This document shows positions 47 through 61,500 of a stretch of 64,000 nucleotides of DNA, piece after piece. The notes beneath the pieces were generated by a model that made no database searches, had not been told where the DNA came from, and was given only the letters and a program-made list of their open reading frames with translations. Numbering within the stretch: position 1 is the first letter of the stretch; each line of letters opens with the position of its first letter. The position numbers were made by a program, and so were the translations under genes. This DNA is from Amoebophrya sp. A120 (taxonomy: Eukaryota > Protista > Dinoflagellata), in NCBI GenBank assembly GCA_905178155.1, contig CAJINV010000002.1, positions 6,490,476 through 6,554,475 of the forward strand, read 5' to 3'.

Positions 47-3000
47 CAAGACCACGCCGGCGATGAAACCTACAGTTTGCACCAAGCCTGGCAGGAACTG
101 GAGGCCGCCGAAGACGGACCCGTCTGCGAAACGGAGGTGTTGGGGCTTGTTTCCACTGGTCCTTGCGACCACGCCGGCTTCCACATTGAAGGGCTGGACA
201 ACGATGGAGAGGAAAATGCCGCGACCACTCCAGGAGCAAGAGGATCGAAAGTTGTTTCGCAGCAAACCACGACACCGAAAACGAAAGGCAGAGCGAGCCC
301 TGGTGGAGCTGCCGGGGGTAAAAAGACCAAAAAAGAGAAGCGGAAAATGAAGAAGGAAAGTTTACTCCAGGCCGGTGCAGCAGCAGACGATGATGTCGAA
401 TTGACAGGCACTGCGGCGTCCTCCGGTTCCGGTTGTGCAACAACTAAAAATTTGGATTTTTTTCCAACCGGTTGTAGTAAGCGCTTTTCGACGTCGTCTT
501 GTCAAGAAGAAGGTCAGGACGTTGACCTCCACGAGGAACAATCGCTCCAGGAAGCAATAAGGTTGCGGCCTGGTCGGCAGAAGGACACGGTCCGAGCAGT
601 GAAACGCGTGATCGAAGAGGAGACGGCCGCGTTTTTGGACAACATCCAGGAAAGGGAGAAGCAGGCCACCAAGAATCTGGTCAGCGGCATGGCCGTGCTG
701 GAGCTCGCTATTCGCCGCCCTGATTTCTCCTTTCTGGTTAACGCAGAATTTGCGAATACAACCGCAGATGATGGAACAAACGGAAACACAAATGACAATA
801 AGGCAGGAGGAACATCTTCAGATGCGAATGCCACAGCAGGTCCAAAAGTTGACTTGATCGCGCAACTCGGGACGAAGTTGGAATTTTACACGACCTACCA
901 CAAGAGTTTAGAAACGGTGTTGGAAGTGTGCCGCGCGTTTTCGAAGAATAAACAATCGGCGGAGAAGAAGGATTTGTGCTTTCAAACGTACAAGAAGCAC
1001 ATGGAAAACTTCTTTTTTCCGGATCCCGTGGTTCTAGCAACGGGGGACAGAGCCGCGGTCGAGGCGGAGATGGAGCGGAAAATGCCGTTTTTGGAGCGGG
1101 GAATCACCGCTATAACGAATGATATAGAGAAGAAGTTCGGGAGACTGCTTTTGCAGCAGATGGTAACATATGGATTGTAAAAATGTCTGGGTCTGGAAGA
1201 ATGCAAGATTTGTGATGCAGGTTTTTTATGACCCATGAGGTCTGGAATGCGAGACCCAGCATGACAGATTCTTTGAGGTCTTTATCATGCCTTTCCTGCA
1301 TGAGAGACTCCCTCTCAACTTGGTCAAAAGCGAACAGCTTTTGGTACTCACGCAACACAGATTTTTGCATCATTCAGATTTAGCATCACAAGTTCTAATC
1401 TTCCAGACCCAGACACTTTTACACTTGATATAACATCCGGCTCGGTGCCGGACGCCGTTGCCGCCCTCTACCACGAACTGAAACAGAGCGCCACGAACGC
1501 GGTCGCCGGGGAGATGAAGAATGTCTCAGCTCCCGAAAAATGCGGTCGTGCAACGGATCTTTCGAATAAAACTACGGATAGTGCGCCGGGGGAAGAAAAC
1601 TACGCCGAAAGGACCGCTTCATCTGGTAGTTCTGGAAGTAGTGCGAGCTTTTCTACTGCTGCTCGTCAACAAGATGGGGAGTCAGAAGGTGCTGCTGCTG
1701 GTGTTGTATCGGCAAACAAGCAAGGGGACGACAGCGGGGTACGACTTGGGTTGCAGTACACGGCCAAGGAGTTGGTTAGTCGGATGGACAATTTGGTCGA
1801 GCAGAACCGAGCTTCTGCGTCACAGCAGGTTCATCAATGTGCAGCGCAACACCACCCGGACCCCTTGCTGGATTTGAACATCATGCAAAACGTCCTCTCC
1901 CGGATGGAAAAGCACGCGAGAGACAAAGCGAAGCAGCGACAGAGCAAGCACGCCCACCTGCGCGACAAGAAACAAGTGAAGCAGCAGCGGCAACACGACC
2001 AGGAGTTGCAAAAGTGGGAGATTGCCGCCAAGATCGCCTCCGGCAACCAGGAGTGCTTGTTCGGTTGGCACGACATCTGCACGAACTTTTACATGGACAG
2101 TTTGGGCGGCTGCAACGTGAATTTGGAGTTTTTGCTCCGCCGGCTCTTACCCTACAACATCAAAACGACGCAAACCGTGTCCACCATGCACCTGAACGCG
2201 ATCAAAAACAACCTCGTCACCCTCGCCACCGGGCAGCCGCCGTTGAAAAAGAAGTTGCTCATCGACTGTGACCGAACGACGGGGCGAATCGCGAGACGGG
2301 AGGTGTTCGAACCCTCTAAAACCTTCGCGATCGTAGATAGCACGATCAAGCAGCTGAAGCATCTGAAGGCCTTTCAGTTTCTGAAGCAGCTGTTCAAGAT
2401 GCTGCTAACGTGGCTCGCGGATACGAACAAGTACTTGGACGGTATGCGGGAGGTGGTGAAGGCGATCGGGCTACCCACCAAGCAGAAGACGGGAGAGTAC
2501 GTATCATGTGTAAAAACGTCCCCACCCCATAGCCAAGTTGGGAACTTAGCAACACAAACCCAGAAGCTTTGGGAGCAACGCATGACAAATTCCAGTTCGT
2601 AGTGTAGTGCAGTTTAGCAAGTGCAGTCGCATCACGAATCCGTCTGCTCATCCCGTTTACAGCATTACAAATTCCAAAACGCGATTGGAAATGCCTCTCA
2701 TGGAGATGCGCGTTACAAATTTTCCTGTAATCGTAAATCTGCATGACAGCTATGGGGTGGGGACGTTTTTGCTCAGGAGAGTACGTGACCGGCGTGATTC
2801 CCGGGTCGCCGGAAGACATGCGGTTGAAGCAACTTGGGTTCAAGCACCCCACGAACGCAAACCTGTACACCCCCATCGACCACGAAAAGTCCAAGGTGGG
2901 GTTATTACAGTGAAAAATGCCCCCACCCCGAACTTGGCAGCATTTGTATTGCAAACCTTTCCAATGGAAACATTCCCCGTCTTGCATCTATCAGCATCAC

Positions 3001-4922
3001 AAATTTGCCATGCTGAATAGCTCGAATTTGTGTTGCAAAGGATCCCAACAGCAGCCGGATCTGTTATGCAAAAGATACCTTGCGCAGCTAGATTCTGCAT
3101 CAGAGAAGCTCGTAGTCCTTTCATGCAAGACAAAGAGCTTTCATTTGGAAACTTTGCATGAGAAACTCTTGCAAATTCCGGGCTGGGGGCATTTTTCAGT
3201 GCAATAGGGGTTGGATTTCGTCTCCTGCATGAAGCAGTTGATCGACGAGAACCCGTATCAAATGCAAATATGTCTGGGTCTGGAAGGATGCAACTTGTGA
3301 TGCTGTCTTTGCATTCTACCAAAATCTGTATTGTGTGAGCAGCAAGAGGAGTTCAGGTTTTGCTACGCGGAGGGCTAATTTCTCATGCGGTATAGTCATC
3401 AGGGTGCGCTTACAATATCTGTGATGCTGGGGCATGCATCACAGGCATCTTGGATCATGCAGATTGTGCATGAGAAGTCTTGCAATCTCCCAGACCCAGA
3501 CATATTTGCAATGCATAACCCGTTTGAACAGGCCATGAAACTGTTCGGGCTGGCCACGGAGATCGAAACGCTCGATTGGAATAGAATGTTGTCACCCGGA
3601 GGCGACGAGGAGTATAATGCGGAGAATATTAACAGTAGTTCTCTCGCCGATGATGCCTTCATCTCGGAAGAGATCGAGGACGAAGCGGAAAATAGTTGTA
3701 CTCCTGCAGCAGGGTCTGGGTCCTCTTCATTTTCCCCGGGAGCAGAAGGTGACGAAAACGGTGTGAAGGTGAAGCACCGCAGGGTCCGGATCCAATTTGA
3801 CGAGGAGAAAATGAGGCAGTTCAAGGCGAAACAGGTAAACGCGTTTTTGTCGATTGTGGAGAGGCTGGACTGGTACCGAATTAGCCACGCCGAGAAACAA
3901 CTGGAAGAGGACAATAAAGCGAGGGTGATGAAAATGAATGCTGGCGCAGCTTCTACTCCACAAAGTCGTGGGGTTGACCAGCACTCGGGAAAGGACAGCA
4001 GCGTTGGTGGAAAAAACAAAAAGAAGAGCTGCAATAATTCCACCGCGCCAAATGGAACAAGTAGTGCTGATCTGAAAAATATGTTCGACCCTTCTTCCAC
4101 TAGCGGCGGGCCGCAGCACCTGCTCCCAGCAACGCCCACCGCTGCTGCTGCGGCTGCGCAAAGCAGGGGCCACGTTGCGCCTCGGCGCGTCAGTGCGGGA
4201 CGGAAGTGCCTGGCCCTGGTGCCGCACTCTTACGTCGGTTTGCACGATGAGCTCAGCGCCGTGTCAGATCTGACGGGGATGGGGGGACGGGTGCAGAAGC
4301 AGGAAAAAGCAGAGGAACAAAGACAAAGAGATGAAAGTGCTGGAGCTGGTGCACATCAGGATAAAAACTTTTCAATGGAACCAGGACAACAATCTTTCAC
4401 AAGAGAAACGACGCCGGGCGATCATGATCAAGATCAAAATGAAATGGAGGACATCGAGAGGGAGATCAGGGAGAGGGAAGAGGAAATTCGGCAGCGATAC
4501 CCCGACCCGATGGACGACGTGGATTTTATGGCGTTCTCAAACGTTACATTCTCAACTGTTGCATGAATTCGTCATGCAAAAATACCTTAAGCCGGCAGAT
4601 GATCGAGCTGCTTCGCATGACAAATTTCGGAAGGGCTAGACAGCATCTAGATCTGCGCCAAACTTGTGATGCAAAAGGCGCAATCTTCTTCCTTTCACGT
4701 TTGCCAGTCTTGCATCACCCAGTTGAGAGTGTAACATTTGAGAACTCCATAGATTTGGATTTTTTCATCGGGACTACGGAATTCAAGAGCCCGGACACGG
4801 GCCATTGGTTCTTCCGCACGGAAGCGGGACGGCATTTCATGGTGCCGGAAGGCCGGTTATTCGAGATGGTGGAACAACCGGAAGAGGGAGGAGCCGGGCC
4901 GGGGGCGGAACGGAGTCCATGA
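47..4922 (+). CDS. 5'-partial hypothetical protein (~1,170 aa in window) split by five TIR/TSD elements; exons 47-1168, 1436-2501, 2786-2902, 3212-3255, 3523-4526, 4757-4922
   Basis: ORFs 77..1180, 1445..2602, 3385..4566 and 4563..4922 join in one frame after removing each element + one TSD (QMVT|SGSV, GEY|VTGV, KVG|LDFV, ENP|FEQA, DVD|LDFF). No domain recognised. Confidence 0.8.
1169..1430. mobile_element. Introner-like element, family A (262 bp), TSD TAACA
   Basis: TIR TATGGATTGTAAAAATGTCTGGGTCTGGAAGA / TCTTCCAGACCCAGACACTTTTACACTTGATA; TAACA at 1164-1168 and 1431-1435. Confidence 0.93.
2502..2780. mobile_element. Introner-like element, family B (279 bp), TSD GTACG
   Basis: TIR TATCATGTGTAAAAACGTCCCCACCCCATAGC / GCTATGGGGTGGGGACGTTTTTGCTCAGGAGA; GTACG at 2497-2501 and 2781-2785. 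Confidence 0.9.
2903..3206. mobile_element. Introner-like element, family B' (304 bp), TSD GGGGT
   Basis: TIR TATTACAGTGAAAAATGCCCCCA / TGGGGGCATTTTTCAGTGCAATA; GGGGT at 2898-2902 and 3207-3211. Confidence 0.9.
3256..3517. mobile_element. Introner-like element, family A (262 bp), interior inverted relative to 1169-1430, TSD ACCCG
   Basis: TATCAAATGCAAATATGTCTGGGTCTGG / CCAGACCCAGACATATTTGCAATGCATA; ACCCG at 3251-3255 and 3518-3522. Confidence 0.93.
4527..4751. mobile_element. Introner-like element, family C (225 bp), TSD GATTT
   Basis: TATGGCGTTCTCAAACGTTACATTCTCAACTG / CAGTTGAGAGTGTAACATTTGAGAACTCCATA; GATTT at 4522-4526 and 4752-4756. Confidence 0.9.
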
Positions 4923-13643: not shown

Positions 13644-13687
13644 AGGAAAAGTTTTTTCCCTAATGTGACGCAGTTCCAACAAGGAGG

Positions 13688-14863: not shown

Positions 14864-14889
14864 AATTTCACTCACCTCCAAGATTACAA

Positions 14890-15262
14890 CTACAAGATTT
14901 ACAACTACAAACTGTCCTTGATCGACTTCGCGCATAGGAATAAGCCAGCAGGAGCAGCGGTAGCAGGATCAGTAGCAGGTGAAACTGACATCTTGTCACA
15001 CCAAAATCAGCGGAAGAATCACCCTGGCAATAGTTCGAAACTCGAACTAATAGACCCGAAAACAAACAAGCCAACGAACAAGATCCACGCCTGGGGCCCA
15101 CTGTTCGCTGAGTTCTTTCCCGAGGGGAATGCTGGATCGCTGGGAACCAATTCAAGTCCGTTTGCAGTCACGGTCTCGCCGAAACCGGAAGGCCCTGAAG
15201 GGCGTCCGTGGACATTGTTTCTGACTAACATCTGGCATTTCGTTTCGAAGCCTTTTAGTTAA
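14890..15262 (+). pseudogene. Partial duplicate of the 3' part of the rhodanese gene
   Basis: YKIYNYKLSLIDFAH...LELIDPKTNKPTNKIHAWG...PWTLFLTNIWHFVSKPF closely matches 13281-13643; the catalytic half is absent. Confidence 0.7.
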
Positions 15263-18503: not shown

Positions 18504-20257
18504 TCATCTCTGCGAGTCCGACGCGAGTAGTTACCTTTTTTTATGTGCAAAAATAGAAGAGATGATGTGTGCCCTTTTTTTGACGAGACTGTTTTGGATG
18601 GGCATTTTTTAAGAGACGAGAAATTTTATGGATTCCGAATCTGTAGGCAAGTAAGAACTTAGTTTTACTTCTAGACGTGGATTGATGTTACTGACAGAAG
18701 GACCACGTCGGGGTCGCCAAGAGATTCCATTTGCTGGAAAGTTTTGTAGCAGGAGGAATGTCGCATTTCACGTGCTGTTTCGCCCGGCACATCATTCCCC
18801 CTCCAGATTAAATTTCTTCTCTATTTGCTCCATGTAGTTTATTGGGCAGAGCGATTTCGGGTGATCGTACGTTCATAAAATTCAAATTGTATAAACACCT
18901 CCAGATCTTCAGGGCGGACGGAAGTAGTACACCAGGATGAGTTTAGTTGTCGCAACTTGAAGTTGTAAAATGGTATTAACAGAAGTAGCGGAGAATTTAC
19001 TGAAAAAGCGAATTTGTACGGAGGACAAGGACATACTTAGGTTCCTATACCTCTACGAGGTGGCGAACCTGTACGTGATAAACAAGATTGAGATTTTTAA
19101 AGACGTGTATGATGGTGCCTCAACAAAAAGAAAAAAGTGAGAAATCTAGTATAAGATAGCCAGGAGAACGTGAACAAGACCGCAGTATTTCTATTTGGGA
19201 TTTAACACGCATTCGCATAACACAGGTCCCGGATCCAATTTGAAAAAAGATCGTGACAGAAGACGTATTAGTATATGGTCATCACATAGAGTTAGAGATA
19301 CCTGTACCAGATGAAAAGACGATGTACCCCTGTCCATACAGTTGTATATCGCCTGTGAAAAGCAGAAGCACCGGAGTTTTTGGTTTCCACACCCCCGTGA
19401 AAAATTCGACAGAGCCCCGACGGTTACTCGTTCATCCAAAAGAAGCGACTGCGCGTGTGGTTCTCTCACTCTCTTCGGAACTAGGAGGAGATACGCAGCA
19501 GAAACTAGAATATTACAGGAAAATGTCGCTTGACTTTTGCAAGAACAAAAACAAAGTAGAACACGAGGAGGACAGCTCCTGTCGTAAGTATTTAGTACAC
19601 TGTGCCCCGCATCAGCATCAGTGCAGCCAATGGCGTAAAATGCGGACAGGGTGCGAAGTCCACTGTCATGTCGTTTTCGGAGCAGAGCGCAGCATTTTTG
19701 TTGCTGCGACAGAAATAACTCGTCAAGAGATGAGGAGATGAGATGTCGCACAAATATGCGGAGAAAATTGTTGAGGTGAGAGATCAGGTGTCCTCGCAAA
19801 TGTGCGTAACAAGTACTGCATCCGCTTTTGAACGTGTGCGTGTTGTGGAGTTGTCAGAGCGACAGGTGGAAGTTTCTGTGAGTTGTTCTCCTTATTCCTC
19901 CTCCGAAGTAGCGTTGGCTCGAGGACTCGGGTTATATCCATGGACCTTCTTCCTTGTCCTCGCGAATGTTAAACGGCCGCATGATGCGCATGGTGCTCAT
20001 AAATATTGCAAAGGTCTTCGTCTTCTGTAGCGCACAAAATAAAGTGCTTCCAACATTCACGCGCGCTGCGCGGACCCCGCCTCCACTGCTTGCACTTCGA
20101 CAGAATGTACACCGGAACCAGAAATTGTGACAGCCAGCACGACGTCGTGTACAACCTTGCACTATCTTCGAGGGCCAGCATGCTGCAGCGACGTCAAAGT
20201 TTATTTTCTTAGCACGAGCAGAAGCATTACATCACGACGACCTTCCTCGAGCGGAAT

Positions 20258-39500: not shown

Positions 39501-42500
39501 TCACGAAGGAGATCGCCACGACGGATACGGAAGGGAATGTTTTGACGACTCTGGACTCGGTTTCTTCCTTGGCGGTTTACACAGTAGCCGACGGGTTTGC
39601 GAAAATCCTGCAGGAAGCGAAGATGTTGGACGGTGGAAACAGCTATCAGCAGCAGCGACTCGTGTACGGGGCGGACGGGCGGCAGGTCAATCTCGACGGA
39701 CAGAACCCGTCTCTGAACTCGTGGCTGACGGGTCAGGGAAATGATAGTACCGGTACAAATGGGATGAACACGACAGCGCAAAATAATAGTCCAAATGCAA
39801 CAAACGACAATGTGCCCTATCCGAACTTCCAATCGGTTGAGGAAACGTACGACGACGACACGCCGCCGGAAGTAAGAGCCGCGGCCGGGATGGATTTCGT
39901 CTTAATTCGCATGTCGAACATCATCACGCAGCTGCGCGTCGCGAAGGCGCTCGAGCAGCAAAACGGCGAGAATGCGGCGTTTTTCGAAACCGAGTTGTCC
40001 GGTATGAACCCCGTGCAGGAGACGATTGTCAACACAGAAGTCGCGAACGTCTTCCGCGCGGAACGGGATGAGCGACTGGATGAGTCGCAGAACCTCATGA
40101 TCGACAAAGCCTTGACCAAAGAGCGCGGTATCACCGTCGTCCAGGGTCCGCCCGGGACCGGGAAGACGAAGGCAGCGCAGTGGCTGTTGCTCTGCCTGAC
40201 GGAGAAGGAAGACCGAATTATGGCCACCGGCCCGACGAATCAATCGGTGGAAGAACTCGCCTCGAACTACCTGCAGAACCCGGTCGTCCGGGAGATGCGG
40301 CGAAAGAACAAAAGGCTTTTGAACCCGTTGACGTTACCCCACCAACCGCCGCTCGTCGAGGTGATTGAGGACTTTTCCAAGGATATGATCGTGTGCTCGC
40401 GGAACAAGATGAACGTGAACACGATCGAGACGAAACTGAAGCAGGAGGGGACCAGCACCGATTTGTCGAAGTGTATGATCTACAAGCGGGGCGACGAGCT
40501 GGTCGTGTTTCTCTTGAGAATGTACGAGGCGGTGGACCAGGGCATCGAAATGTGGACGAAAATACCGCTCAGCATGCTCTTGGAGTCCTGTTACCTCTAC
40601 TACGAGGAACATAAGAATCGGATCGCTTTCGGGAACGTGGAGCCGCAACAGCGGGAGCTCTACGCCGATGGGACCTGGCAGTTTAAATTTTCCAAAATTC
40701 ACCTGTGCGCGAAGGCGGTCATCCAGAAGGGCAAACTCGCCGACGTCGTCATGGAGTTCATGCAGCAGAAAATTTTACGGAAGTTGTGGGAGCTTCGCAA
40801 GGAACTGGAGCCGCACATTGTGGCGAGCCCCCAGAATATCAGATTGATGAGCATCCGGCGGGTGTTGGAGGACATCTGGCCCAGTGTGCAATTTGGAGAA
40901 GACGACGAAGAAGTGATCAGGAGGTGCAAAAGTAAATGGTCGCTGATCAAGTCCTGGAAGCAATTCACGGACAACATTGTGCAGAAATTGCGCGATCCGG
41001 CAAGACACGCGACCGCGTCGTCGGCGGCCGCGGGGGGTGCTGGAGCTAGTACCGGAAATAGTAGTAGTAACCAAGAGCTCGATGTGGCGCAGATCATTCT
41101 AGAGGCGGAATCCTCGGGAAGACTGGCGGATCAGTACGGGAGGAAGCGTATGGATTGTAAAAATGTCTGGGTCTGGAAGAATGCAACTTGTAATGCGTAT
41201 TTCAGAACACAGAAAAGTCTCTCATGCATACGTAGCAAAAGCTCCTACTTTTTGTCTCGCCAAATAGGGGATTTGTCATGCGGATTCGGCATTGCGGAAG
41301 GTTCTCGAAACCTGTGATGCTAGAGCTTCCATGCCAGACCTTCTGTGTCATGCAAAGACAGCATGACTCTTCCAGACCCAGACATTTTTACATTTGATAA
41401 AGCGGGCGTTTGAGCTATTCGGCGTCGACGACATGGACCGCGGGTGGGTGGATTTGAACAGACAGGAAAGTCATGAGGATGATGATACGCAACTACGCGG
41501 TGACAACGAAGATTCCAACAGCGCAACATCTTCCGCTGCTGAGGATCATGGCACGACAACCAACAACCTCGGCATTTCCTCCGACTTCAGGCAACGGGTG
41601 AACACTTTGCTCAAGGGGAAAGGAAAGAAGGGGAAGAAGGGTGGGAAAAAAAGTGGTAAAAATGACCGGTCTGCCTACGCGGCGTACATCAACACTATGG
41701 CGACGACCCGCTACGCGGAGATCCGCAAGACGCTACGGCTGAAGGAATTTTGCGGGAAAGACCCGGAAGAGGTGAGCACGAAAAATATGAAGATGTTCAT
41801 GCAGGACTCCCGGGTCATTTTCTGCACGGTAAGTGTCGGGGGGCGGGGCACGTTTGAACAGCTGTACTTCTCGTGTGTCTTAATCGACGAAGCGGGGATG
41901 GTGCCCGAGGCGGAGTCCGCGATTGTGATCAAAGATACGACCCGACGACTGATTCTCATCGGCGATCCGCAGCAGTTACGGGCGACCGTTATGTCGAATG
42001 TTTGTCAGAACTGTCTCTACGCTCGATCTCTGATGGAGCGGCTGATGAATTTCAACGGGTTTCCGGCGCACAGATTGCGATTGGAGTACCGGATGGAAAG
42101 AGAGATCATGGCGTTCCCAAACAAAGTTTTCTACGAGAACGTCCTGCAGATCTCGAAACAGGTGCGGGAGAGACGACACCCCTGCATGGCGATATTGCGT
42201 TCGAAGCAAGACCTCTACGACGCCCAGCACATTGTCCCGGCTTTGAAGCAGCAGGATTTGCGGCAGAGGGTGGATGAGGATGAGGAGATGGAGAACTTCG
42301 GACAACAAGTCTCCGCCGCAGCGGGGAACGACGAAAGTGCCAGGGTCGCGAACGTCGCGACCATGTCCTCGATGTACAAGAGTGGCCGGATCAACTGCTT
42401 CCAAACGTTGGTCTGGATCGACACCTCCAGGTTGAACCACCGGCAGGATATACGGACGGGGGGCAGAAGCTTCACAAATCCCAAAGAGGTGGACTTGATC

Positions 42501-45500
42501 ATCGACCACGTGAAGAGGCTAAACCGGAATGTCTGCCTGTTGAAGAGAATCCCGTTTCCGAAGAACAAATCGATCCAGCCGCTACTGTATGGATTGCAAA
42601 AGTGTCTGGGTCTGGATAAGTGCAAGGTTTGTCATGCTAGGCTAGCAAGACTCTTAAGTCTTTCATGCAGGTTACCCAAAGGCCCTGTGATGCAGAAACG
42701 CAGTTTGTCACGCAGAATAGGCAAGAACACCTGGAAGCTCAGAAACTTGTCATGCCGAGCCGGCACTTGTGGCCTCCACATTCTAAGTCACTCAGCATTA
42801 CGAGTTTCCAGACCCAGACATATTTGCATTGCATATACTGGAAGAATTTTCCATCGGCATCACCTCCCCCTATGCGGCCCAAGTGGAGCTACTCCGCGAG
42901 ACCGTCCAATCGGAGTTTGGGTTTGCGCAGGCGACGGAGCGGATCAAAATCCGGTCGATCGACGGGTTCCAGGGGGGAGAAGCGGATATCATGTTGATAT
43001 CCTGCGTCCGGAGCAACGAGAAGAAAGTGGTTGGCTTTTGCAAGAACCCGGCGCGGTTGAACGTCGCGCTGACACGGGCGCGGCTCGCTTTGCACATTTT
43101 CGGCGACAGTGAGACATTGTCTTTGGGGGACCCGAAACACTGGAAGCTCTTTGTCGATTTCTTGCGGGAGAAGGAACTGATTTTTGATCTCGCTGCGCGG
43201 CAACACGCGAAAATCGTGGAGAAGGACGTGACCGGGAGAACCCGAGAGGCTCTCCGCGTGGTCGAGAACGCGCTGAACGCGGGGAATGGGCTCTTAACGG
43301 GTGAAATTTCCCGGCCGACTTTGACGCACAACCCGAACTTGTTTCGCGGCCAGGACGAGATGTCCGCACTGGCGATGCACGTAAAGAAAATGGAATTCGA
43401 AATGCCGAAGCAATTCTTGCAAGGTACGGAACAACAGCGGGAGGACGAAAGTAGACACGAAGATTTGAAGTTCAACATCTCGCCCAACCTCAACAAGCTG
43501 CGCTGGTGGATGGACCCGAAGGCGGAGGGAAATGTTTTCGCGATCGTCTTTTCTGAATTCGCGCAACGGTGGTACAATGCGGGGCAGAGGCTCTTGCAGC
43601 TGAAAATCCTGATCGCCGCGGAAATCGCGGGTTTAGTGAAGGGGGAGAAGATGCGGATCCACCCGGACAGTCAGATCAGGAACTTCAGCGAGGAGGAACT
43701 CGTCAACGCCGCGGCCGAGCACCTCCAAGTTCGACCGCAGATCGCGAACGGTGGCGCAACTGGCGTCGCGGTACAGACGAAAATTACCTCCTCCGGTCTA
43801 GAGTCGTTGAAGTCCATGAACAAGAGGCAGCAGCAGCAGTACGACCAAATGTCAGTCGACATTCTGTGGCACATGCAGATCGACACGGACACGGGGAAGC
43901 AGCTAATTGTCGTTTGGAACATCGTGCACGCCGGGCAGTTCAAGCAGGCGCGGGCGGAACATTTACAGGAGTTGCGGCGGTTCAAAACGGAGTATTTGCG
44001 GGACTGTTTAGTTCGGAAAACAACCGCGAATGCCGGAACATCAAGCGGCAGCGCAGGGGACCAAGGAAAAAAAGGAGCAGGGAAGAAAGGCACTTCGGAG
44101 AAGCAGGCCCGGGGGGTGTTGGTCGTCCCCTACATGCCGATCGATGAACGCACCCAGCAGAGGAAGTACAAGGTGAATTACGATCACTTGAAACCCTTAT
44201 CCAGACAGGAGTACGGGGAGCTGCTCGCGAAGAACCAGAAAGACGGGATGAGCCTCAACCTCCACGGGGAGAAGAACACGATCGGCATCTCGCGGACAAA
44301 ATTGTACGACGTGCACGGTGCGCAGGCGATGCGCTTGCTGATGGCGGACAAACCCGTGATTCTGCCCCTAAAACTTTCCCAGGAGGAGAAGCAGGCGGTT
44401 CGGCACCCGCGGTCCATCTTCGTCCATGGTCGTGCCGGTACGGGGAAGACGCAGGTTTTGGTCGCAAGAGGGTACGAGCACCAAACCATGTGGATCAAGG
44501 AGCTGGAGGACACGGCGGGAGAAGTAGAACATAGCACCACAGCAGCCGCTTTACCTCCCATCGAGGAGGAGCTGGACGAAGAGAAGTTGAAAGCGGAGGG
44601 TTTGAGCCGGATGCAGATCAAGATGCGAATTCTGAAAGCCCAGCAAGCCAGGAAGCAACGCGAGAAGGAAGCGAAGAAGCGCACGCAGGAGCGGGAGAAG
44701 ATGAAAAAGGAAAACTTGAAGCTTGTCCTGTTCGTGACCGCGTCGCCCACATTGGCCATGCAGGTGAAGAAGTTCTATGATGGGCTCTTAGAGTCGTACT
44801 TGGTAGCCGAGAAGAACAAAGACAGCGTTTCCTGGGCGCAACGGGGGGACGAGGTGTTGAAGAAATTGAACATGGAAAAACAGATGGATTTGGAGGGGAA
44901 TCTAGTAGAAGGTGGTGCGACGATTGAAGAAGTTGATGACGATGTTGACCAAGCAGATGAGGAAAATAACAACTTCGACAGCGACGATGACCAAAATGAG
45001 AAGGACGAGCTGAAACTGCTAGAAGATTTATCCCTCTCCGACTACGACGACGCGGATTTTTTGGAGTTCGATCCGGTGGACGAGCAGGTTTTAGCGAACG
45101 CGAAGCCTCTCGAACATTTTCGCACGCCGAAGAACAAAAAATCTTCCTCGTCGTCCAGCGACAACGACGACGCGGACACGTCAGAAATTGTCTCCTCGAT
45201 CGTGTCCACACCGAGTTCCTCGAAGACCTCCCGCGCGGCTAGTTCCACGACGAACGCGCCGGGGTCGTCCGGGGTCGTGTCGAGTGCTGATGTCGTCGGA
45301 ACTACAAATAAGGACGTGACGCATGGTGCAACTAGTACACCGGGTGTCACGAACGACCAGACTGACACGAGCGGGAAAACTTTGCTCCAGTCCTCGACCA
45401 AGTCGCAACACACGGCGAAGAAGAAGTACCGGCAACGGCTTGGTACCAATCATGGGGCAACTTCTGCCACCACCTCCGCTGCGACAGAGAAGAAAAGGGC

Positions 45501-48500
45501 GGATAAGATGATCAAGGATATTTCCAACAAGGACAAAACGGACAATATCCTGAGTAAAAATGTCCCCACACCAGAGTCAAGATGGGAAATCTGCTAGACA
45601 AATCTACAAGTTTTGGCTGTCTTGCATGACAAATTTGGACTCGCAGTGTAGTGCTGTTTGAGCTACCTCAGAAGCATCACAGATCTAATATATCATGCTG
45701 ATTGGAGCATGGCAAATTCCAAAACACAACTAGAAAATGCTTCTCATGGGGATCCGCATGAGAAACATTCTCAACATGCAGATTTGCATTACAACTATGG
45801 CGTGGGGAACTTTTTTCAGTACGATAGACAAGGAGAAGGCGGACGAGGAAGAACTCGTCGCGGCCTACGCTGAGGCCAGTGTTGGGATCGGGTTTGCCGT
45901 ATCAACTGCAAATATGTCTGGGTCTGGAAGATTGCGAGATTTCTCATGCTAGTCTGGCATGACTCTGAACTCTGTGTTGCATGGCCGCGAAGAGCTCCTC
46001 CTCCCTGTCATGCAAAAACGCAGTTTGTCATGCGGAGTACTTACGCAACTGCAACTCAGAGCCATGAAAAAAACCTGTCATGCTTTGCAGCGCATCATAG
46101 TGAGTTCACTATTCCCTCTCTTGCATCACAAGTTTCCAGACCCAAACATATTTGCAAGGCATACGCCCCTTTGACCCCGCAAGAGCGGCAGAAGGAGGTC
46201 GCCCGGATGCCGAAGACGTTCTCCGAGATCCGGGACCGGGCGGAGCACGGGGCCGCGAGTTTGATCACGAATTATTTGCACTTTTTACAGGTGTTAGACG
46301 CCAGTATCGACGACGACGAGGAATTTTTCCGGATAAACAAAACGGAACAGTGGATGGCGGATTTTCACACGCTCCCGCCGGACGAAAACCGCTTCGAGCC
46401 GAAGCACCCGGATTCCGAGGTCAATTTCCGCCGTTTCTGCATCAACTACTACGACAGTCTCCGCGGCGGGGACGCGGATACAGAGAACGCGAGGTCTTCC
46501 TCTTCTTTGATACCGACAAGTAGTTCCAGCAGTCCGCACGGGATTCTCTCGTCCATGGGAGGACAACTGACAACGCCGAACAGTAGTTCCTCGTCTTTGG
46601 ATCAACTCCAAGCGGCACTAGGCCAGCAGCAATTATCCGGAGGCAACATCGGGCTCAAAGAGCTCGTCCGGGGAGTTGCTGCGGTGCCCGATGCGAGTCA
46701 GCTCTTTAAGGAGTTCCACATCATCAAGGGCGACTACCCGCCGGAAACCCGCCAGCACAAAACGGAACTAGACGACGTGTTAGACATGGCGGAGAAGCAG
46801 CACTACGGCGGGAACGCGCGGACCACCGCCCACCGCGTCCGGCCGAAGCTGATGGAGGGCAATCTGGGCCGATTAGACTCTTCGAAAGCGAAGGACAAGT
46901 ATGGGCGCAGGCATCGGGACAAGGACGCGGAAATTTACTTGTTGCAGAAGGAGGGAAAGGATGTCGACACGGAGCAGCTGCAGTACATTGACAACCTCTC
47001 CAAGCAGCAGGAAGCGCTGAAGGACCCGCTGTCGCACATCGGGGAGACGTTGACCCAGAAGCAGTACGTGGACGACCCCCCGGCGGAATCTCTGCTGCAG
47101 AACGCGTCCCGAGCGGACCGGGAGAAGGTGTACAAAGCCTTCGAGAAATACGAAGCGCACAAAAGAAAGCGGAACGAGTGGGACATGAACGACTGCGTGT
47201 CGAAAATTTGGGAGCGGTTGTCGTGGCGGCTGCGGCGAAGGAACGAGAACGAAGACAGGAAGGGGCTGCTGAAGGACAACCAGCTCTACAACGGGCCGCT
47301 GGTTAGTTGCTTGCTATCGGACGAGTCGCAGGATTTGTCCATTTTGCAAATGCTTCTGTTCGCGTTGGTGTGCCAGGACCCGAACGCGTTCACCTTCGCC
47401 CACGACCCCGCGCAGTGCATTGCGGAGGGGCGGGTTTTCAAGCACGCGCGGCTGAAGGATTTGTGGCACGGATTGTACAAGAAGATTCTGAAGCAGGCCA
47501 ATGTCGAGGGCGACACGGAGGAGGAGAGGCAGCAAAAAGAGCGGGACTTCAAGGTCGAAATGCCCGCGGAGATCCACCTCACCCGGAATTTCCGTGCGCC
47601 GCAGCGGATTCTGAACATGGCGCAGGTTTTGGTCGAGATCTGCAAGCACTTCTGGCCGAAGCGCATCGACGAGGCAGCGCCGGAGATTTCGTACGAACGC
47701 GGGGAACTGCCGACGATGGTGGTCGGCGTCTCGGCGAAACAGTTCCGCAACGCCTTGCTGTCCGCCGGTGCGGATGATCCGTTGCTCAGCGGGCAAGCCG
47801 GATCGATTGCGGAGAAGAACCTCCAGGATGCGGAGAAAGCGCTCGCGAACAAGTCGGGAGTGTCGAAAAAGAAAAACAAACAGGTGAACTTGCAAAAGGT
47901 GACGTCTACCACCGCGTTGAAGACGGGGAATGAAGGTACAACTAGTATTAACTCAGCGACCAGCACGACCCCCGGAGCAGTTGTAAGTGCCTCTACTTCA
48001 ACTACCGCTGCAGCAGCCGCGGGGGGCGGGGGCTCCGGGAAAAACATGTTCAATCCTGCAACCAATTCTGGCGGGGGGATCACCACCTTCGGCGCGGATC
48101 AGGTGGTTTTAGTTGGCACGGAAGAGGAGAAAAATTTCGTGGATCAGTTGCTCGGAGATCGCGGGATCGTCGTCTTATTGCCGGCGGAAGCGAAGGGGCT
48201 GGAGTTCAACGACGTCATTCTGTGGAACTTAGTCAGCCGCAGTGGGGTCGACGGGGAAAGGGAAGAGAAAGTTTGGACGGTTCTGTTCGATTTCATGCGG
48301 GCGTGTCTCGCGCAGTCCAATGTGCAGCAACTGAGAGAAGATAATACGAGAAATACTGGTCGTCAACAAGGCCGAACCACTTCTAACACCGCTGCAGCAG
48401 CGTCTTCGAAGCAAACGGAGGCTGAACAAGAGAACTCCGAGGACTTCCCAGACTCCGACGACCTTGAGGAAAACCAGCAAACTGATCAGCAGCAGGGTCC

Positions 48501-51500
48501 GAAGAAGCAAAACTACACGAAGGAGCAACTGGACGTGATCCTGGACCAGTTTGAGCAGAAGGTGATGAAGAAGCAGCGACAGGGCGATAGCAAGGATCAG
48601 GTCACGGAGTTGTGGAACACGCGGCTGAAGGAGCTGATTGTCTGCATCACCCGCGCGAAGAAGAGGCTTGTGATCTACGAAACCGACGCCACCTCTACCG
48701 CCGTGCGGATGTTCCAGACGCTGTACCACGAGGCGCCGCAGACCGGGCTGCCGTTGTCGAAGCGGCAGGTGTTGGATACGTCGGACGTCGAGTCTTTCGA
48801 CGACGACATTCCCTTCGGCGGAGCTGCAGCTGCCGGCGCGTCCCCAGCAGAAATGAACGGGAAAATGGTTTTGGGGAAGCCGCCGACAGCGACCATCGCA
48901 TCATATAACGACGCGCTTGCGAGTTGCGGGTACACGAGGGACCCGCTTTGCTCGTTGGTGACGACGGTCGAGCAGCTAGGCGAAACGGAAGCAGTTGTAG
49001 ATTTCCCGAGAAAGTCTTCGAAGCAGGAGTATCTCCGCAGAGGGCAGGAGTACTACAATAACGAGCAGTTCGTCGAGGCAGAGAGGATGTACCGTGTTGG
49101 GGGCAACATCCCTCTAGCATTGTGGGCGAAAGCCGCCGGCGCGGAGCAGAAGGCGAGGGATGTCGGCGTGGATGTCCGCCGGTTGAACGACGCGAGTAGG
49201 AAGGAAAGGATGCTTCTGTTCCGCGAGTCTGCGCAGTTTTACATGCAAGTCTGGACCACCGTCGCACAGGAGGACAACAATAAAGCTGCTGCCCAGGGCG
49301 GCGGCGGTGGAACAACAACCGCGGTGCAGTTGTCGAAGAGGCAGATGAATTTTGACCTAACGCAGTCCCAATCCAGTGAGCTCGGCGAGCGGGCGCTGAG
49401 ACAGGCCGCGATTTCCTTCGGAGAGGCGGAAGACTGGAAATGCGCCGCCGAGGCTTATGAAATGATTGCGAGCCGGTATTTGCAGCGGAACAGCGAAGAT
49501 ACCCGGCAGTTGTTCTCCCAGGCGGCGGACTGCTACCGGAAGATGCATCTGTTCGAACGCGCGGGGGATTCCTTTAAGAAAGCGGGCAACGACAAAGAAG
49601 CCCTGAAATCCTTCCGGGACGGAAGACTGTGGCACCGTGCGCTCGATTACTTTGAGAACCCGGGAGTGGAAAAACAAAATGGAATGGCGATCGCGGACAG
49701 TACCTTTTTGATGAAGTCACCGGATCTACTTTTGAACAACAACGATAACGAGTTAAACGACTCGAATTTGTTGAACGACCCGCTGCAGAATCAAAACTAC
49801 TTTGACGACAGTGAGTTTCGGCAAATGAAGATTCAAAACGCAAAGCTGATCGCACGGAGAATCGCCCCGATCCCCAACCAGTGCAGCGAGGAGCAGGTTC
49901 TGGCGATCAAGCTTCACTGCGCAACCATCCTGGAACAGGAACTGGAGGAAAACGGCGGGCGGATCTCCTACAACGATTTCGGTGTCTTTCTCGATGACCA
50001 CCAGATCCGGAAACAGTTCTACGAAGAGAAGCAAGATTGGGAGAAAGCCGCGGACGCCCACGAGCGGTGCGGGGAAATCTTCACCGCCATGGAGATCACG
50101 CAGAACCACCAACTGAAAAGCTCGCTGTGCCTGAAATACAAACGACTCACGCTCGCTCGCGACATGAACGACTTGCGCACCTGGTTTGCGAAGAATCCGG
50201 ACAAAATGGAAACCATTCGGGCGAATGTCATGCTCACAAACGACTCGGAGGACGGCGAGCAGCAGCAGCCGCTAATGTGGGACGCGGCGAAGTCGAATAG
50301 TGATATGGAAGCGGCAGAGTTGGAGTTGACGATCCTGTTAAAGGACGTGGGGGCGAGAAGAGGCGTGAAAATGCCGGCGGTGCATCAAGGTACGCAGAAA
50401 GACTATTTTGATAATATGGTCGATGCTTGCAAATTATGAAAAAACTGAATCGCGAGCAGGTGCTGTTTTTTGCAGGTAAAGCCATTATAAGTAGAAAACA
50501 TCATCATCATCATCAATTACAAGTGGAGTATGATGGTTTTCGACAGCAAAAATATTTTTGAACTTCAAAACATAGAAAATATTTTTTTTTTTGCGCGTCC
50601 GACGCAACAGTACTGTCAGCTCTCAGGCCGGTACGTAGGTACGTAGGTACGTTGGTACGTAGGTCGCGCAAAAGCAACGTACCTACGTACCGAAGGACCC
50701 GAATATCCAGGTATCGAAGTAACTACCTCGCGGGACCTACGTACCTACGTACCTACGCGTCCCACACACTCCCGCGACCGGGACCTACGTACCTACGTAC
50801 CAGCACGTCCCACACACTCCTGGTCGGGACCTACGTACCTACGTACCTCGGCACCTGTTCGGGTCCTTCGGTACGTAGGTACGTTGCTTTTGCGCGACCT
50901 ACGTACCAACGTACCTACGTACCTACGTACCGGCCTGAGAGCTGACCTTACTCCGACGCAAAGTTTTTGTAGCCTTCACGCAAAGAAACAACATTTGCAG
51001 TAAAACCGCAGCGTCTCGTCGTGATTCGCGCTTTTTTCATCAAGAGTCACGGTTTCCGCAAAGCGATTATGCGCTTGATAATTTAGAGAATGCGCTTTAA
51101 CGTCATTTGAAAGCAGGAGAATACCGAATAAATTCGAATGTCGAAAATAAAGCACAATTACTTACCAAAATTGACAGCTGCGGAGTCGATCATGAAGAAG
51201 TTTTTGAAGCACAACCAACCCCTTCCCTTCCAGCACGAAGAGAACGACGGTCTGCACCACTTTATCTGTACCCCGATGCCCACCTTCCGCACCACAATTT
51301 ACCTGGCCGAAGCGTTCAAGCAGGCTGTGCAGCTAGATACCGAAATGGACAGCAAAACCCACGCGCAAATCTTCTACATCATCAAGGACCTTGCGTTCAA
51401 GTGCCTGTATGGGATGAGCGAGAACAGTTTCGGTTTGGTGGAGGTGTTGCAGGCCGTGCAGAAGATGCTTCAGGGAGGGGCAGACGGTTTTAACAAAGCA

Positions 51501-56803: not shown

Positions 56804-58596
56804 GGTGAAATCTGTGTTTGGTTGTTCATGATCTCGTCGTCATGCGGCCGCTACGCAAGGGAAACCCATCTGCTGCCGAAACGCAAGCAAAGGAGCAAGG
56901 ATTTTACTGATGTCGGAGTGCAGAATTGCGACCATCAAGTTGTAGTTGCGCAGGGGTTCGTTTCCTGCTTGTTTGAAACAGCAGCGCAGAAGAGATGGAC
57001 ACTTCCTAGCCTATAACGTACGATTAGGAAATAAAATGTGCCATGGAAGTAGATAACAAGCACAGAAGTCAAAGCTCTTTAGCTTTTACAGGCCTGAGAA
57101 TATAGGTGGATCGTGGTTTGAACAATCAACATGCACATGCTCCTCTTCTATCTGAAGAACTTCGGCTGAGAATTTGGCTTGGGTTTTGCTAGACCAGTGC
57201 TTCTGTGTCGTTTGTGACGGTCAATCATACGAAGCCAAACAGTACGCAGCGGTGGTCTCGACGTGCGGGAGTGGTCAGTGACACTACTAGAGTATACAGA
57301 GAATAAAGGCCTTCCCTCGCGGAAGAAACAGACGAAAGGCCTCTTGGTATTGGCTGGCTCGACCACCTGCTAAATTTCTGGTACGAAGAGGTACTAGAAG
57401 AGCATCTCGCCACAGGCACAGCAGCTCGAGGCGCAGTTGCTATCCAGTTTTTTCCTGCGATAGAAAAGGTGGGAGGTCCTCGCTAGCACATTGTAGAACC
57501 TACCCCGTCCATGTTTACGACTTTTTCAACTTCTTTATTTTATATCAGGCAGTGTGGAGATCGTCGGGAGCAGAATCATGTGCACCGCGATCAGATAAAG
57601 AATGTAGATCTCAACAACTGAAAAAATGACACGACGAATTTGCGCTTTTGTTGTAGCGACAACTAAAATACAAAAGGTTGCAAGCACGAATGAAATCTTC
57701 CACTATTGATTGCTTTCATCTCCTCGACATATGATGAATTTTACACAGTATGTATTCGCTTTTTCCTGCGACGAACAGGAACAAAAGCAGGCTGAGAAGT
57801 CGGATCAAAAACGTGTTGACGAGTTGTTCATGCAATTTTCGCTCGTTCGCTCGCACTCCCCGTGGAGATCTTCGAGAAGATCATTGTGGGAGACCCTAGC
57901 TGTTTCGGTTTTGTGAAGATTCATCACGCTCCTGAGAAATGTCGCTGTCGTGCTGGCGCCAAGATATTTATGATCACTTCGATCTTTTGCGAACATATCA
58001 ATATCTTTTGCATTTGATGTCGTGAGCTGGTAAAAAGTTCGATGGTCACGTCCTCCTCTCGGCTGAGATTCCTGTTTCGAAAGTAGTTCCTCTTGAGATC
58101 GATGATCCTGCGAGATCTTAAGAAATGACTGGAAGCTCCTGGTAGATCTACAACTACAGCGAAGAAAATGTGATCATCGCTGCGCCCAGCATGCATTGAA
58201 TATCGGTTTCAGCATCATTGTACTCAACCCGAAGGCGTCGGGCTGGAACAACTACAGAATGCAGACTTTCCGCACGACGCTGACTCACGCTCACCGAGAA
58301 CAGCATTCTTCTTTAGTCTTCACACAGAGTACAAATTCTCTTCTAGTTAGTACTTGTTTTGTGCACTTTTATTTGAATAGCATTACGTAGACGTTACTCA
58401 CCCCGAACTTGCAGAGAAGAAGGCGACCTAGACATATATACCAAACGACCAACATTTTGGGCGAAGAATGAAGATGGAACGAGGACGACCAGAGGACCAT
58501 CTTCAACTACACCTGCAAAAACGTAGCATTATGTGTGGCGAAACAAAGCGAATAAAGATGAAGCTCGCGCATTCTTCCGGGCTTCGGTCTGAGTCG

Positions 58597-61500
58597 ATGT
58601 CTCTTCGTCGCGCCGTAGTGCTTCGATTCTTCATCCTGCCGTTGTTCACTGTAGTCGAAGCGCTTCCGCGACCTGCCGTGGATCCGCATGCGTACTACGA
58701 GTTTCTGTTTGGCTACCCCGAAACAGAAGTTTTCACTCCGCCTGGGCACCGCGCTGACAATGCCACTAATTTAGCGATTAGGAACAACTTCGATGTCAGC
58801 TTTGAAAGGGTGCCGTTCGAACCGAACTACACAAGGACTCCAGATCATGGTGGAGGTGGCACGGCAAATAATCTTCAAGCTCAGGATATTCTGATTAAAA
58901 ACGTCCCCACACCAGAGTCAAGTTGGCAAATCTGCTAGACAAATCACACAGCTTTGGTCGTTTGGCATGACAAGTTTGTCCTCGTAGTGTAATCCTGTTT
59001 CGCTAGCTCAGAAGCATTACAGATCTAGCCTACCATACTGATTCTAGCATCACAAATTCCAAAACACGAATAGAAAATGCTTCTCATAGGGCTCCGCATG
59101 AGAAACTTTTTTGGCATGCAGAATTGCATGACAACTCTGGGGTGGATACGTTTTTACATAGGATACAGGATCCTGCCCTGTCGGAATTTCTCACCACTTG
59201 GGTTGCGAAGCTGAAGAGTCGGCTATCCTGAGTAAAAACGTACCCACACCAGAGTCAGGATGGGGATTTTGCAACACAAACCTAGGACTTTTGTGAGTCA
59301 CGCATGACAAGTTGCACTATGCAGTGTAGTGCAGGTTCGCAAGTGCAGCCGCATCACAGATTCATCTGCTCATCCTGTTCACAGCATCACAAATTCCAAA
59401 ACACGACTGGAAATGGCTCTCATGGGGATGCGCATTACAAGCCTTTCTGTCTTTGCAAATCTGCATTACAACTTTGGTGTGGGTACGTTTTTACTCAGGA
59501 TATCGGCGGAACAACCGAGAGCTGCATGCCGGGAAATTTTCTTCGATTACCGTGGGAGAATTTGAGGCGTCCCTGAAGCAGAAGCTCGCGGGAAAAAAAT
59601 TCACGGCTTTGTCCGATACCAATTCTACCTTCACCGCCAAACGGTTTACCTTGTCCGACGCGAGCACGGACATCGGACAAGTCACTGCGTCGCACCCGCT
59701 GGCCACCATCCAGGGCGCCAGTCAAATGAACGGCTTGGAGCAAACGTCGGACAACGCCGACCCGCATGGCATTGTGAACTACTTCTCTGACGACACCCAG
59801 GGCCCCGCAGTCGCCCTCACCGGGTTCGCCGGGACGCTGTGGCGCAACCACTTTGTGCGGCTCGGGAACACAACTCCGACGAACCGGCGACGTGTTATCG
59901 ACGAGACGGCCGCGACCCCGTACGACCCAGCGGACCTGTTTCGGGGGCAGACGGCTGATAATCTCGGGCCCGGTGGAATCAGGCGGCGGTTCGACGAAGT
60001 CCAGCAGCTGGACAGCTTCCACGGCGTGTGGGCCGCGATTCTGCAGGCCGCGGGTTCTGCCACGGACGCAAACGCCGCTGGATACCCGGTCCGCAACGGG
60101 TATCTGCAAGTTGATGATGTCCGAACGGAGTTCCAAAACGCGCGTAGAAGTACTACTACCGGTAACCCGGTCCTCGGGGACGCGCAAATCGAGCAGATTT
60201 TTCGCGACCGGCTCCGGGTGCACGTCCAAGAGGACACGGAGTTTACGGGCTACCGCGACGCGACTGGTCGCGGCCAACTCGCGCCGGATTTGGGTGGAGA
60301 CATCAATACCAGCAAGCCTTTCAAGGAAAAGCATCTGATTACCCAAGTGTACGGGTCCGGCATCCCCGGACCCTCCGCGGTCGACGTGGACGAGATATCA
60401 AATGTAAAAATGTCTGGGTCTGGAAGATTCTAAACTTGTAATGCTGTCTCTGGATTCTAAAAAAATTTGTATTGCATGACCAGCAAAAGGGCTCCAGTTT
60501 GTGCTACGTGGAGAGGGCATTTCTCATGCGGTAGAGGCATCACAAAGTCCTCTAAAGATCTGTGATGCTAGGGCATGCATCAGCATCACAGACATCATGG
60601 GTCATTCAAAATATGCATGACAAACCTGGCAATCTTCCAGACCCAAACACTTTTGTAGTTGATACGAGAATGCGCCGAACAACGTGGCGGTTTTCTACAA
60701 GAATTTTCTGCGGTACCAGTACCGTGCGGCCTTCGCCGTCGCACTGCGACAGGCGGTCAAGTATCGTATTTAAAAACGTCCCCACCCCATAATTGTCATG
60801 CAGATCTGCAAGCACAAGTGCACTTGTAATGCGTATCCCCATGATAGGCATTCCCGATCGTGTTTTGGAACTTGTAATGCTGTAAACAGGATAAGCAGAT
60901 GGATTTGTAATGCGACTAAACCTTGCTAAACTGCATTACAATACGGCCTGCAATTTGTCATGAGTGGCTCCCAAACCTTCAAGGTTTGTGTTGCAAAATC
61001 CCCATCTTGACTTTGGTGTGGGGACGTTTTTACTCAGGATATCAAGTGGAACTTCGGGAAGTCGTCGAGAAAGCTGTTTCTGACCGGGCTGGGGTACGGG
61101 GTGTGGTCGGGGGGGCAGGAAGCCGCGTTGACGGAGATTTTGAAAACCGTGATCGCCGAAGCGTTCTTCGCCTACCGGAACTGCGGCTTGGAGGTTCAGC
61201 TTATCGTCGGAGCGTCGCCGGCGGTGGTGAGCAATCTGCTGCAGGGGGTGCAAGAGAAAAAGCAGCAAATGCTCGCGGACAACAAGGACGATAGCGTCTG
61301 TGGACTGGGGTTGAATGATCCTCATCCAGGAGGCAATTCGCCTGGTGGAGGTTCTCCCGGTGGCGGCGGTTCTGGCGGTGGCGGTTCTGGTGGCGGTGCT
61401 GGTGGCGGTGGTGGTGCTGGCACTCATCCTCCAACAGTTCATCCAGCCGGCACGCCCAGGAGCAGTTCAGTCACGTACACGCCGATAGTCTTTTGGGCGC

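What the first reader, a model, noticed from the sequence alone, without database searches (positions are those of the whole stretch)
1169..61041. Same element families occur in both orientations within + strand genes
Seen: family A 1169/23350/39226 is inverted relative to 3256/60396 (1169 and 3256 share one gene). Family B 2502/45546/58887/59224 is inverted relative to 60762 (three of these share one gene). Family D 34606/37962 is inverted relative to 22965. Known: spliceosomal signals (donor, branch point, acceptor) are strand-specific. Inference: removal is guided by the symmetric TIR stem, either through an RNA hairpin-directed splicing pathway or through programmed DNA excision analogous to ciliate IES removal.
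Basis: partly seen in the sequence, partly recalled or inferred. Interest (0 to 1): 0.85.

Follow-up and report, generated by a model that had tools for sequence, protein, structure and literature searches.

The report
Amoebophrya transposon introns, either way round
Small hairpin-ended transposons sit in both orientations inside genes of the marine parasite Amoebophrya A120; contigs from likely RNA libraries skip such copies exactly, so these already published introns are likely recognised by their mirror-image ends, which narrows the still open question of how they are spliced.

Summary
Observation confirmed. The window holds 21 TAT...ATA inverted-repeat elements flanked by 5-bp duplications. 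Families A, B and D occur in both orientations, all inside + strand genes. Removing each element plus one duplication restores five ORFs of 755-3990 codons; two match annotated Amoebophrya sp. A120 proteins exactly. They are the published A120 introner elements (Farhat 2021). Of 14 elements laid against likely-RNA contigs, 4 show exact skip joints (D in both orientations, A forward, one other), 3 more follow from contig arithmetic (A inverted, B forward twice), inverted B (60762) is unresolved, and 6 gave nothing. A likely-DNA run shows filled sites, so DNA excision is unlikely. Best reading: a retooled spliceosome reads the ends and likely cuts 1 base before and 4 after the element; a Euglena-like hairpin pathway is the rival. 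I did not find orientation independence stated for Amoebophrya in the papers searched, but this scan reported it earlier on other pieces of this genome.

The parts
1169..1430 (+). Family A element, forward; duplication TAACA
3256..3517 (-). Family A element, inverted, same gene as 1169; duplication ACCCG
23350..23657 (+). Family A element, forward; readable as GC..AG in one register
   Evidence: joint 23344->23658 in X3
39226..39488 (+). Family A element, forward
   Evidence: no joint seen, low cover
60396..60664 (-). Family A element, inverted; no GT/GC-AG reading in any register
   Evidence: X3 contig 13 leaves the window at 60389, the leftmost exact-skip point (inferred); absent from P0001
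41149..41399 (-). A-related element, same orientation as 60396
   Evidence: no joint seen
2502..2780 (+). Family B element, forward; 3' end AGA instead of ATA
   Evidence: absent from P0003
45546..45826 (+). Family B element, forward
   Evidence: filled in DNA-like run X1, no RNA joint listed
58887..59165 (+). Family B element, forward
   Evidence: skip inferred from contig arithmetic, 77 of 77 letters; absent from P0001
59224..59502 (+). Family B element, forward; no canonical reading
   Evidence: skip inferred from contig arithmetic; absent from P0001
60762..61041 (-). Family B element, inverted, same gene as 58887 and 59224
   Evidence: absent from P0001, A25 ortholog aligns across the junction; RNA contig unresolved
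34606..34932 (+). Family D element, forward; no canonical reading
   Evidence: joint 34600->34933 in X4 and X6
37962..38286 (+). Family D element, forward
   Evidence: no joint seen
22965..23294 (-). Family D element, inverted; readable as GT..AG because its duplication is GAGGT
   Evidence: joint 22959->23295 in X3
22463..22598 (.). Short singleton element with unequal duplication copies; RNA keeps the first two bases of the left copy
   Evidence: joint 22459->22601 in X3 and X4
38892..39157 (.). Family E element (A-type ends, different interior)
42588..42835 (.). Family E element
45900..46163 (.). Family E element; duplication copies differ at positions 1 and 5
2903..3206 (.). Singleton TAT...ATA element
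4527..4751 (.). Singleton TAT...ATA element
20354..20666 (.). Singleton TAT...ATA element
47..4919 (+). Host ORF, 1172 codons after removing 5 elements; from 689 on identical to annotated A120 protein P0003 (958 aa)
20213..24211 (+). Host ORF, 964 codons after removing 4 elements
   Evidence: one X3 contig skips three of them
31222..35660 (+). Host ORF, 1369 codons, amino-acid transporter domain
36534..50436 (+). Host ORF, 3990 codons after removing 7 elements; superfamily 1 helicase-type domains
58468..61826 (+). Host gene; spliced product identical to annotated A120 protein P0001 (743 aa); A25 ortholog 33% identical over the queried exon

Best explanation
These are non-autonomous inverted-repeat DNA transposons of Amoebophrya A120 that sit in coding exons in either orientation and are missing, with one copy of their 5-bp duplication, from contigs of likely RNA runs, likely because a retooled spliceosome reads their mirror-image ends instead of GT-AG. 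Shown: anatomy, both orientations, frame restoration, exact skips for 4 elements. Inferred: cut-and-paste insertion made the duplication. Inferred: the intron starts one base before the element (N-U-A-U, a donor lacking its G) and ends four bases after the final AUA, the 3' cut being set by distance from the end-to-end stem and not by an AG. Because both arms carry the same motif (TAT, seven variable bases, A-run), inversion changes only the interior and leaves these signals intact. That the spliceosome is the catalyst is untested.
For: Arms are symmetric: TAT 21/21 and 20/21, A13 21/21 on both arms, no 5'/3' difference at positions 1-22. Exact joints for D inverted, D forward, A forward and 22463, in runs that also skip GT-AG introns; arithmetic fits for B forward twice and A inverted. 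Annotated proteins equal the in-silico splice over 9 of 9 junctions compared. Only 3 of 21 can be read GT/GC-AG in any register, against 6.3% of coding 5-mers, so most need non-canonical cuts. Register: the one informative RNA joint places the cut at or after duplication base 2; all 9 predominant A120 non-canonical sites in Farhat Table S4 begin N-T; the 7 ordinary donors in the window read GTAT x4, GTAG, GTAC, GCAC, and 21 of 21 elements show +2T,+3A only in register 4. A120 keeps U2, U4, U5, U6 and 83 of 89 spliceosomal proteins, U1 RNA undetected. Precedent: Fritillaria non-canonical transposon introns are reported as spliceosome-excised (review).
Against: No lariat, branch point or spliceosome dependence was tested. 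No acceptor-like motif exists at the inferred 3' cut. The register is only bracketed here (positions 2-5, one element); the 1+4 rule came as a lead from unreviewed earlier notes, and Table S4 boundaries may reflect aligner choice inside the duplication. The only inverted copy with a listed joint (22965) can also be read as ordinary GT..AG and rests on one contig; the clean inverted case (60396) is indirect; inverted B (60762) is unresolved and the contig tail also fits retention. X3-X6 are one sample of one study, and their RNA status is the tool's guess. A stable stem would have to be unwound to expose a donor and branch point. G.U pairs do not exceed A.C mismatches in the arms (11 vs 13, 18 elements), so a role for the RNA stem is not supported by selection in this sample.
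Confidence: 0.55

Rival explanations
1. A second, non-spliceosomal RNA pathway (endonuclease plus ligase, or a dedicated complex) recognises the end-to-end hairpin, cuts at fixed offsets outside it and releases the element as a full-length circle, as proposed for euglenid nonconventional introns.
For: Every element folds far more stably than shuffles (z -3.2 to -15.1) and equally on both strands; positions 1, 3 and 11-13 pair in 18 of 18 elements and position 2 in 17 of 18 (3 with shifted arms left out). 18 of 21 lack any GT/GC-AG reading. U1 RNA undetected. Euglena introns use a paired motif at fixed spacing from both cuts (abstract) and leave as circles (review).
Against: The inferred 5' end matches the organism's ordinary donors at +2 to +4. 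No G.U excess. Folding strength is expected of any inverted-repeat transposon. The spliceosome is nearly complete. No such enzyme was identified.
Confidence: 0.35
2. Programmed DNA excision as for ciliate IESs: the elements are cut out of the DNA before transcription, leaving one duplication copy.
For: Exact removal of element plus one duplication is also what DNA excision with microhomology repair would leave; orientation would not matter; only 15 of more than 300 joints were displayed, so rare empty sites could be hidden.
Against: Contigs of likely-DNA run X1 run from unique flank into the element at all 6 elements laid, at about 22-41x depth, and no empty-site joint is among those shown. 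Amoebophrya has no known germline/soma nuclear split (recalled), so excision would be inherited and the elements lost. The likely-RNA runs also hold contigs joining element ends to unrelated flanking sequence, as unspliced precursors would (DNA carry-over not excluded).
Confidence: 0.04
3. Only one orientation, or only copies that happen to offer GT/GC-AG, are spliced well; the others are retained or poorly removed.
For: 60762 unresolved; the two skipped elements listed from contig X3-1 in families A and D both have a canonical reading; contigs cannot measure efficiency.
Against: 34606, 22463, 59224 and 60396 have no canonical reading yet are skipped. Retention gives an in-element stop in 20 of 21 cases and a frameshift in the other, yet the reading frames stay open on both sides, and the A25 ortholog aligns across the 60396 and 60762 junctions.
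Confidence: 0.06

Closest known systems
Introner elements (IEs) among the non-canonical introns of Amoebophrya sp. A120 (Farhat et al. 2021, PMC7789003; read: abstract, sections 10, 11, 12, 16, passages, supplement part 2 of 5 and searched table rows; figures not held)
   Same: Same organism; inverted repeats beginning TAT, seven variable bases, then three or more A; 3-5-nt direct repeats at the borders; non-GT-AG borders; multi-copy families; hairpin and MITE-like origin already proposed.
   Different: Nothing structural. The paper's 4 main-text and 3 supplement uses of 'orientation' concern gene orientation, and it calls the splice position variable relative to the hairpin; both-orientation removal and a fixed register are not stated in the text I saw.
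Introner-like elements of Polarella glacialis and Aureococcus anophagefferens (Roy et al. preprint 10.1101/2020.10.14.339549; read: passages of section 5; supplements not seen)
   Same: Inverted-repeat transposons with target duplications that create introns in either orientation.
   Different: They build GT/GC/GA-AG sites from element and duplication, so need particular target sequences; here the 21 duplications show no clear base preference and 18 of 21 have no GT/GC-AG reading.
Nonconventional introns of euglenids (PMC12501133: abstract and passages; PMC11282704: section 6)
   Same: Non-GT-AG borders, paired ends, duplication-like repeats, MITE origin proposed, cuts at fixed spacing from a paired motif.
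   Different: Different motif (CDG/CH'G); circles are reported for Euglena, not tested here; 'orientation' does not occur in the Euglena paper's main text.
Non-canonical introns of Fritillaria borealis (review PMC11282704 section 6; PMC13326754: search listing and two passages only)
   Same: Transposon-derived introns with inverted repeats and non-canonical ends, reported as removed by an adapted spliceosome.
   Different: Preferred AG-AC/AG-AT ends; spliceosome role is reported there and untested in Amoebophrya.
Ciliate internal eliminated sequences (recalled, not read)
   Same: Transposon-derived inserts in coding DNA, removed exactly with one copy of a flanking repeat, orientation-blind.
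   Different: Removed from DNA in a somatic nucleus; here the likely-DNA run shows filled sites and the duplication is a variable 5-mer.

Membership tests
Amoebophrya A120 introner elements | Host is Amoebophrya sp. A120 | tested here: met
   Two exons match proteins named Amoebophrya sp. A120 at 100%
Amoebophrya A120 introner elements | Inverted repeat starting TAT, seven variable bases, then three or more A | tested here: met
   TAT 21/21 and 20/21; A at 11-13 in 19, 19, 21 of 21 on both arms; definition
Amoebophrya A120 introner elements | 3-5-nt direct repeat at the borders | tested here: met
   5/5 match in 18 of 21, 4/5 in two, 3/5 in one
Amoebophrya A120 introner elements | Removed from mRNA at mostly non-GT-AG borders | tested here: met
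   4 listed joints and 3 inferred of 14 laid; 18 of 21 without GT/GC-AG reading; RNA status of runs is a guess
Amoebophrya A120 introner elements | Repeated, in families | tested here: met
   Families A, B, D, E in the window; summed depth over elements in X1 is hundreds to thousands of times the flank depth (not a copy number)
Spliceosomal (U2-type) introns | GT/GC-AG borders | tested here: not met
   3 of 21 in any register, 1 of 21 in register 4
Spliceosomal (U2-type) introns | Lariat intermediate and snRNP dependence | not testable with these tools
   No raw reads covered the host exons (X9, X10); contigs cannot show lariats
Euglenid-type nonconventional introns | CDG/CH'G paired motif at set spacing | tested here: not met
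   Ends are TAT/ATA versus the signature
Euglenid-type nonconventional introns | Full-length circular excision product | not testable with these tools
   Needs RNase R or long-read RNA data
Ciliate-type IES (DNA excision) | Empty sites in DNA of the expressing nucleus | tested here: inconclusive
   Filled sites at 6 of 6 elements in X1; empty sites not among 15 joints shown of more than 300; life stage unknown
MITE / non-autonomous inverted-repeat transposon | Inverted ends, target duplication, short and non-coding, multi-copy, either orientation | tested here: met
MITE / non-autonomous inverted-repeat transposon | Cognate transposase with the same ends | not tested
   No genome held; Farhat report no transposase in A120

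The most novel reading that the evidence does not exclude
Amoebophrya A120 runs a second, orientation-blind and target-blind RNA excision system, separate from the spliceosome, whose whole code sits in about 30 terminal bases: any TAT...ATA transposon landing either way round in any coding 5-mer is cut out at a fixed 1+4 offset without a scar, making transposition into genes nearly free.
Probability: 0.3. Interest if true: 0.85.

Novelty: already known. Interest (0 to 1): 0.4.

Why it matters
How Amoebophrya removes tens of thousands of non-GT-AG introns without a detectable U1 RNA is an open question. Removal of the same family in both orientations confines the signal to the symmetric ends and gives natural matched pairs (same gene, same family, opposite strand) for lariat, circle and inhibitor tests. 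It also explains how such a transposon can spread through coding DNA at little cost. The elements themselves are published, both-orientation introners are known elsewhere, and this scan noted the same on other pieces of this genome, so the gain is a sharper constraint, not a new system.

Tried and rejected
No whole genome is held, so no genome-wide orientation count was made. Run search listed no holder on record as RNA. In one search the DNA-like run filled the joint table with cross-copy joints, so direct RNA joints there were not displayed. No joint for 37962, 38892, 39226, 41149 (low cover); 7 of 21 elements (1169, 2502, 2903, 3256, 4527, 20354, 42588) were never laid. Strand-specific selection on the RNA stem: not found (G.U vs A.C 11 vs 13; folding energy sense minus antisense averages +0.7 kcal/mol). 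A transcript-side branch-point bias at arm position 16: not found (T 15/21 on the 5' arm, 16/21 on the 3' arm). Target preference for G at duplication base 5: 7 of 21 vs 29.8% background, none. Unequal duplications at 38892 and 22463 are silent in protein, and 45900 separates only register 5 from the rest, so protein comparison cannot place the cut. Rfam: no match in the window. The non-canonical-looking joint 27006->27152 is an ordinary GC-AG intron two bases over. Literature searches for both-orientation statements found none for Amoebophrya; the Current Biology version of Roy et al., Huff et al. 2016 and the introner datasets of Gozashti et al. (whose method allowed opposite-orientation matches) were not seen and may hold it.
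Full report
Observation. All 13 cited coordinates start an element that begins TAT, ends ATA (2502: AGA), has 25-35-nt inverted ends and is flanked by a 5-bp direct repeat. I count 21 such elements, 136-330 bp, 5,751 bp in all: 19 from the detector (0-3 per shuffle in 20 block shuffles) plus 2502 and 45900.

Host genes. Removing each element with 5 nt opens five + strand frames: 47-4919 (1172 codons), 20213-24211 (964), 31222-35660 (1369), 36534-50436 (3990), 58432-61823 (755), which contain all 21 elements. Retaining any one gives an in-element stop in 20 of 21 and a frameshift in the last. Two exons hit proteins named Amoebophrya sp. A120 at 100%; these equal my spliced translations over all 4 and all 5 junctions. 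An A25 ortholog (33% over the queried exon) aligns across the 60396 and 60762 junctions; the alignment near 58887/59224 is gappy. Whether each annotated junction has read support is not known to me.

RNA and DNA. Fourteen of 21 elements were laid. In one search (runs X3-X6; one sample, one study; RNA status guessed by the tool, but they skip five ordinary introns) four joints skip exactly element plus 5 nt: 22959->23295 (D inverted, X3), 23344->23658 (A forward, X3), 34600->34933 (D forward, X4 and X6), 22459->22601 (X3, X4). Four elements there gave no joint. In one search, X3 contig 13 matches 59503-60389 from its letter 78; exact skipping of 58887 and 59224 predicts 77 preceding letters, and 60389 is the leftmost exact-skip point for inverted 60396. 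Its last 128 letters equal the next exon plus 30, which fits either skipping or retention of inverted 60762, so that copy is unresolved; 45546 and 45900 gave nothing. Caveat: 22965 can be read GT..AG and 23350 GC..AG thanks to their duplications; 34606, 22463, 59224 and 60396 have no canonical reading. Run X1 covers introns and spacers evenly (likely DNA); its contigs pass from flank into the element at all six elements, and no empty-site joint is among the 15 shown of more than 300.

Why orientation does not matter. The 5' arm and the reverse complement of the 3' arm have the same profile at positions 1-22: TAT, seven variable bases, an A-run. A transcript therefore starts and ends the same way whichever way the element lies. 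That confines the signal to the ends but does not say which machine reads it. The elements fold strongly, on both strands alike; G.U pairs are not favoured over A.C mismatches (11 vs 13), so I have no evidence of selection on the RNA stem. Only 3 of 21 offer GT/GC-AG in any register (6.3% of coding 5-mers would), and the duplications show no clear base preference.

Register. Earlier unreviewed notes of this scan proposed a cut 1 base before and 4 after the element. I could test this only partly. The unequal duplication at 22463 places the cut at or after base 2 of 5. All 9 predominant A120 non-canonical sites in Farhat Table S4 begin N-T, as register 4 predicts, although aligner choice may shape that table. 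The seven ordinary donors here read GTAT four times, GTAG, GTAC, GCAC, and the elements show +2T,+3A in register 4 only (21 of 21; at most 1 of 21 elsewhere). No acceptor-like motif follows.

Mechanism. Best (0.55): a retooled spliceosome takes N-U-A-U as donor and sets the 3' cut by distance from the paired ends. A120 keeps U2, U4, U5, U6 and all but six of 89 proteins, with U1 RNA undetected. Rival (0.35): a separate hairpin-directed cut-and-join pathway as proposed for Euglena. DNA excision (0.04) conflicts with the filled sites. Orientation- or motif-biased splicing (0.06) is not excluded, as contigs give no efficiencies. Catalysis is untested in every case.

What is known. These are the introner elements of Farhat et al. 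2021 (PMC7789003): TAT-led inverted repeats, 3-5-nt direct repeats, hairpin model, MITE-like origin, 29,850 repeated introns in A120. Introners that work in either orientation are described for Polarella and Aureococcus, with G[T/C/A]-AG sites. I found no statement of orientation independence for Amoebophrya: the word occurs in Farhat only for gene orientation and six searches gave none; figures, subscription papers and introner datasets were not seen. This scan reported both-orientation removal on other pieces of the same genome.

Verdict. Real, already known system; the orientation point is a true and useful constraint on an open mechanism, not evidence of a new pathway by itself. Interest 0.4.

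Noticed in passing
window 50609-50952: Intergenic palindromic element of another kind: 95-nt arms 98% complementary, built of short GTAC-type repeats, between the helicase-like gene and the next gene.
   Followed up: no
window 1-45: Looks like the tail of a further TAT...ATA element cut by the window edge, so the first gene may extend upstream although the annotated protein starts at 689.
   Followed up: partly
window 36534-50436: A 3990-codon frame with AAA_11, AAA_12 and UvrD-type helicase domains, interrupted by seven elements.
   Followed up: partly
all 21 elements: An 8-nt motif (GCATNACA type or its complement) occurs 81 times in 5.7 kb of elements against 10 times in 58 kb outside, tending to face inward from both halves; shared by unrelated families, a candidate transposase or splicing-factor site.
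   Followed up: partly
arm positions 4-10 of each element: These bases vary between close copies (1169 vs 23350) and are often unpaired between the two arms, whereas positions 1-3 and 11-13 are nearly fixed.
   Followed up: partly
window 25393-25528, 26486-26646, 27009-27153: Three short ordinary introns each carry one copy of the element's 8-nt motif; they might be decayed elements that became canonical introns.
   Followed up: no
window 13421-13643 and 15034-15262: Two stretches about 80% alike, 1.6 kb apart, likely an internal or tandem gene duplication.
   Followed up: no
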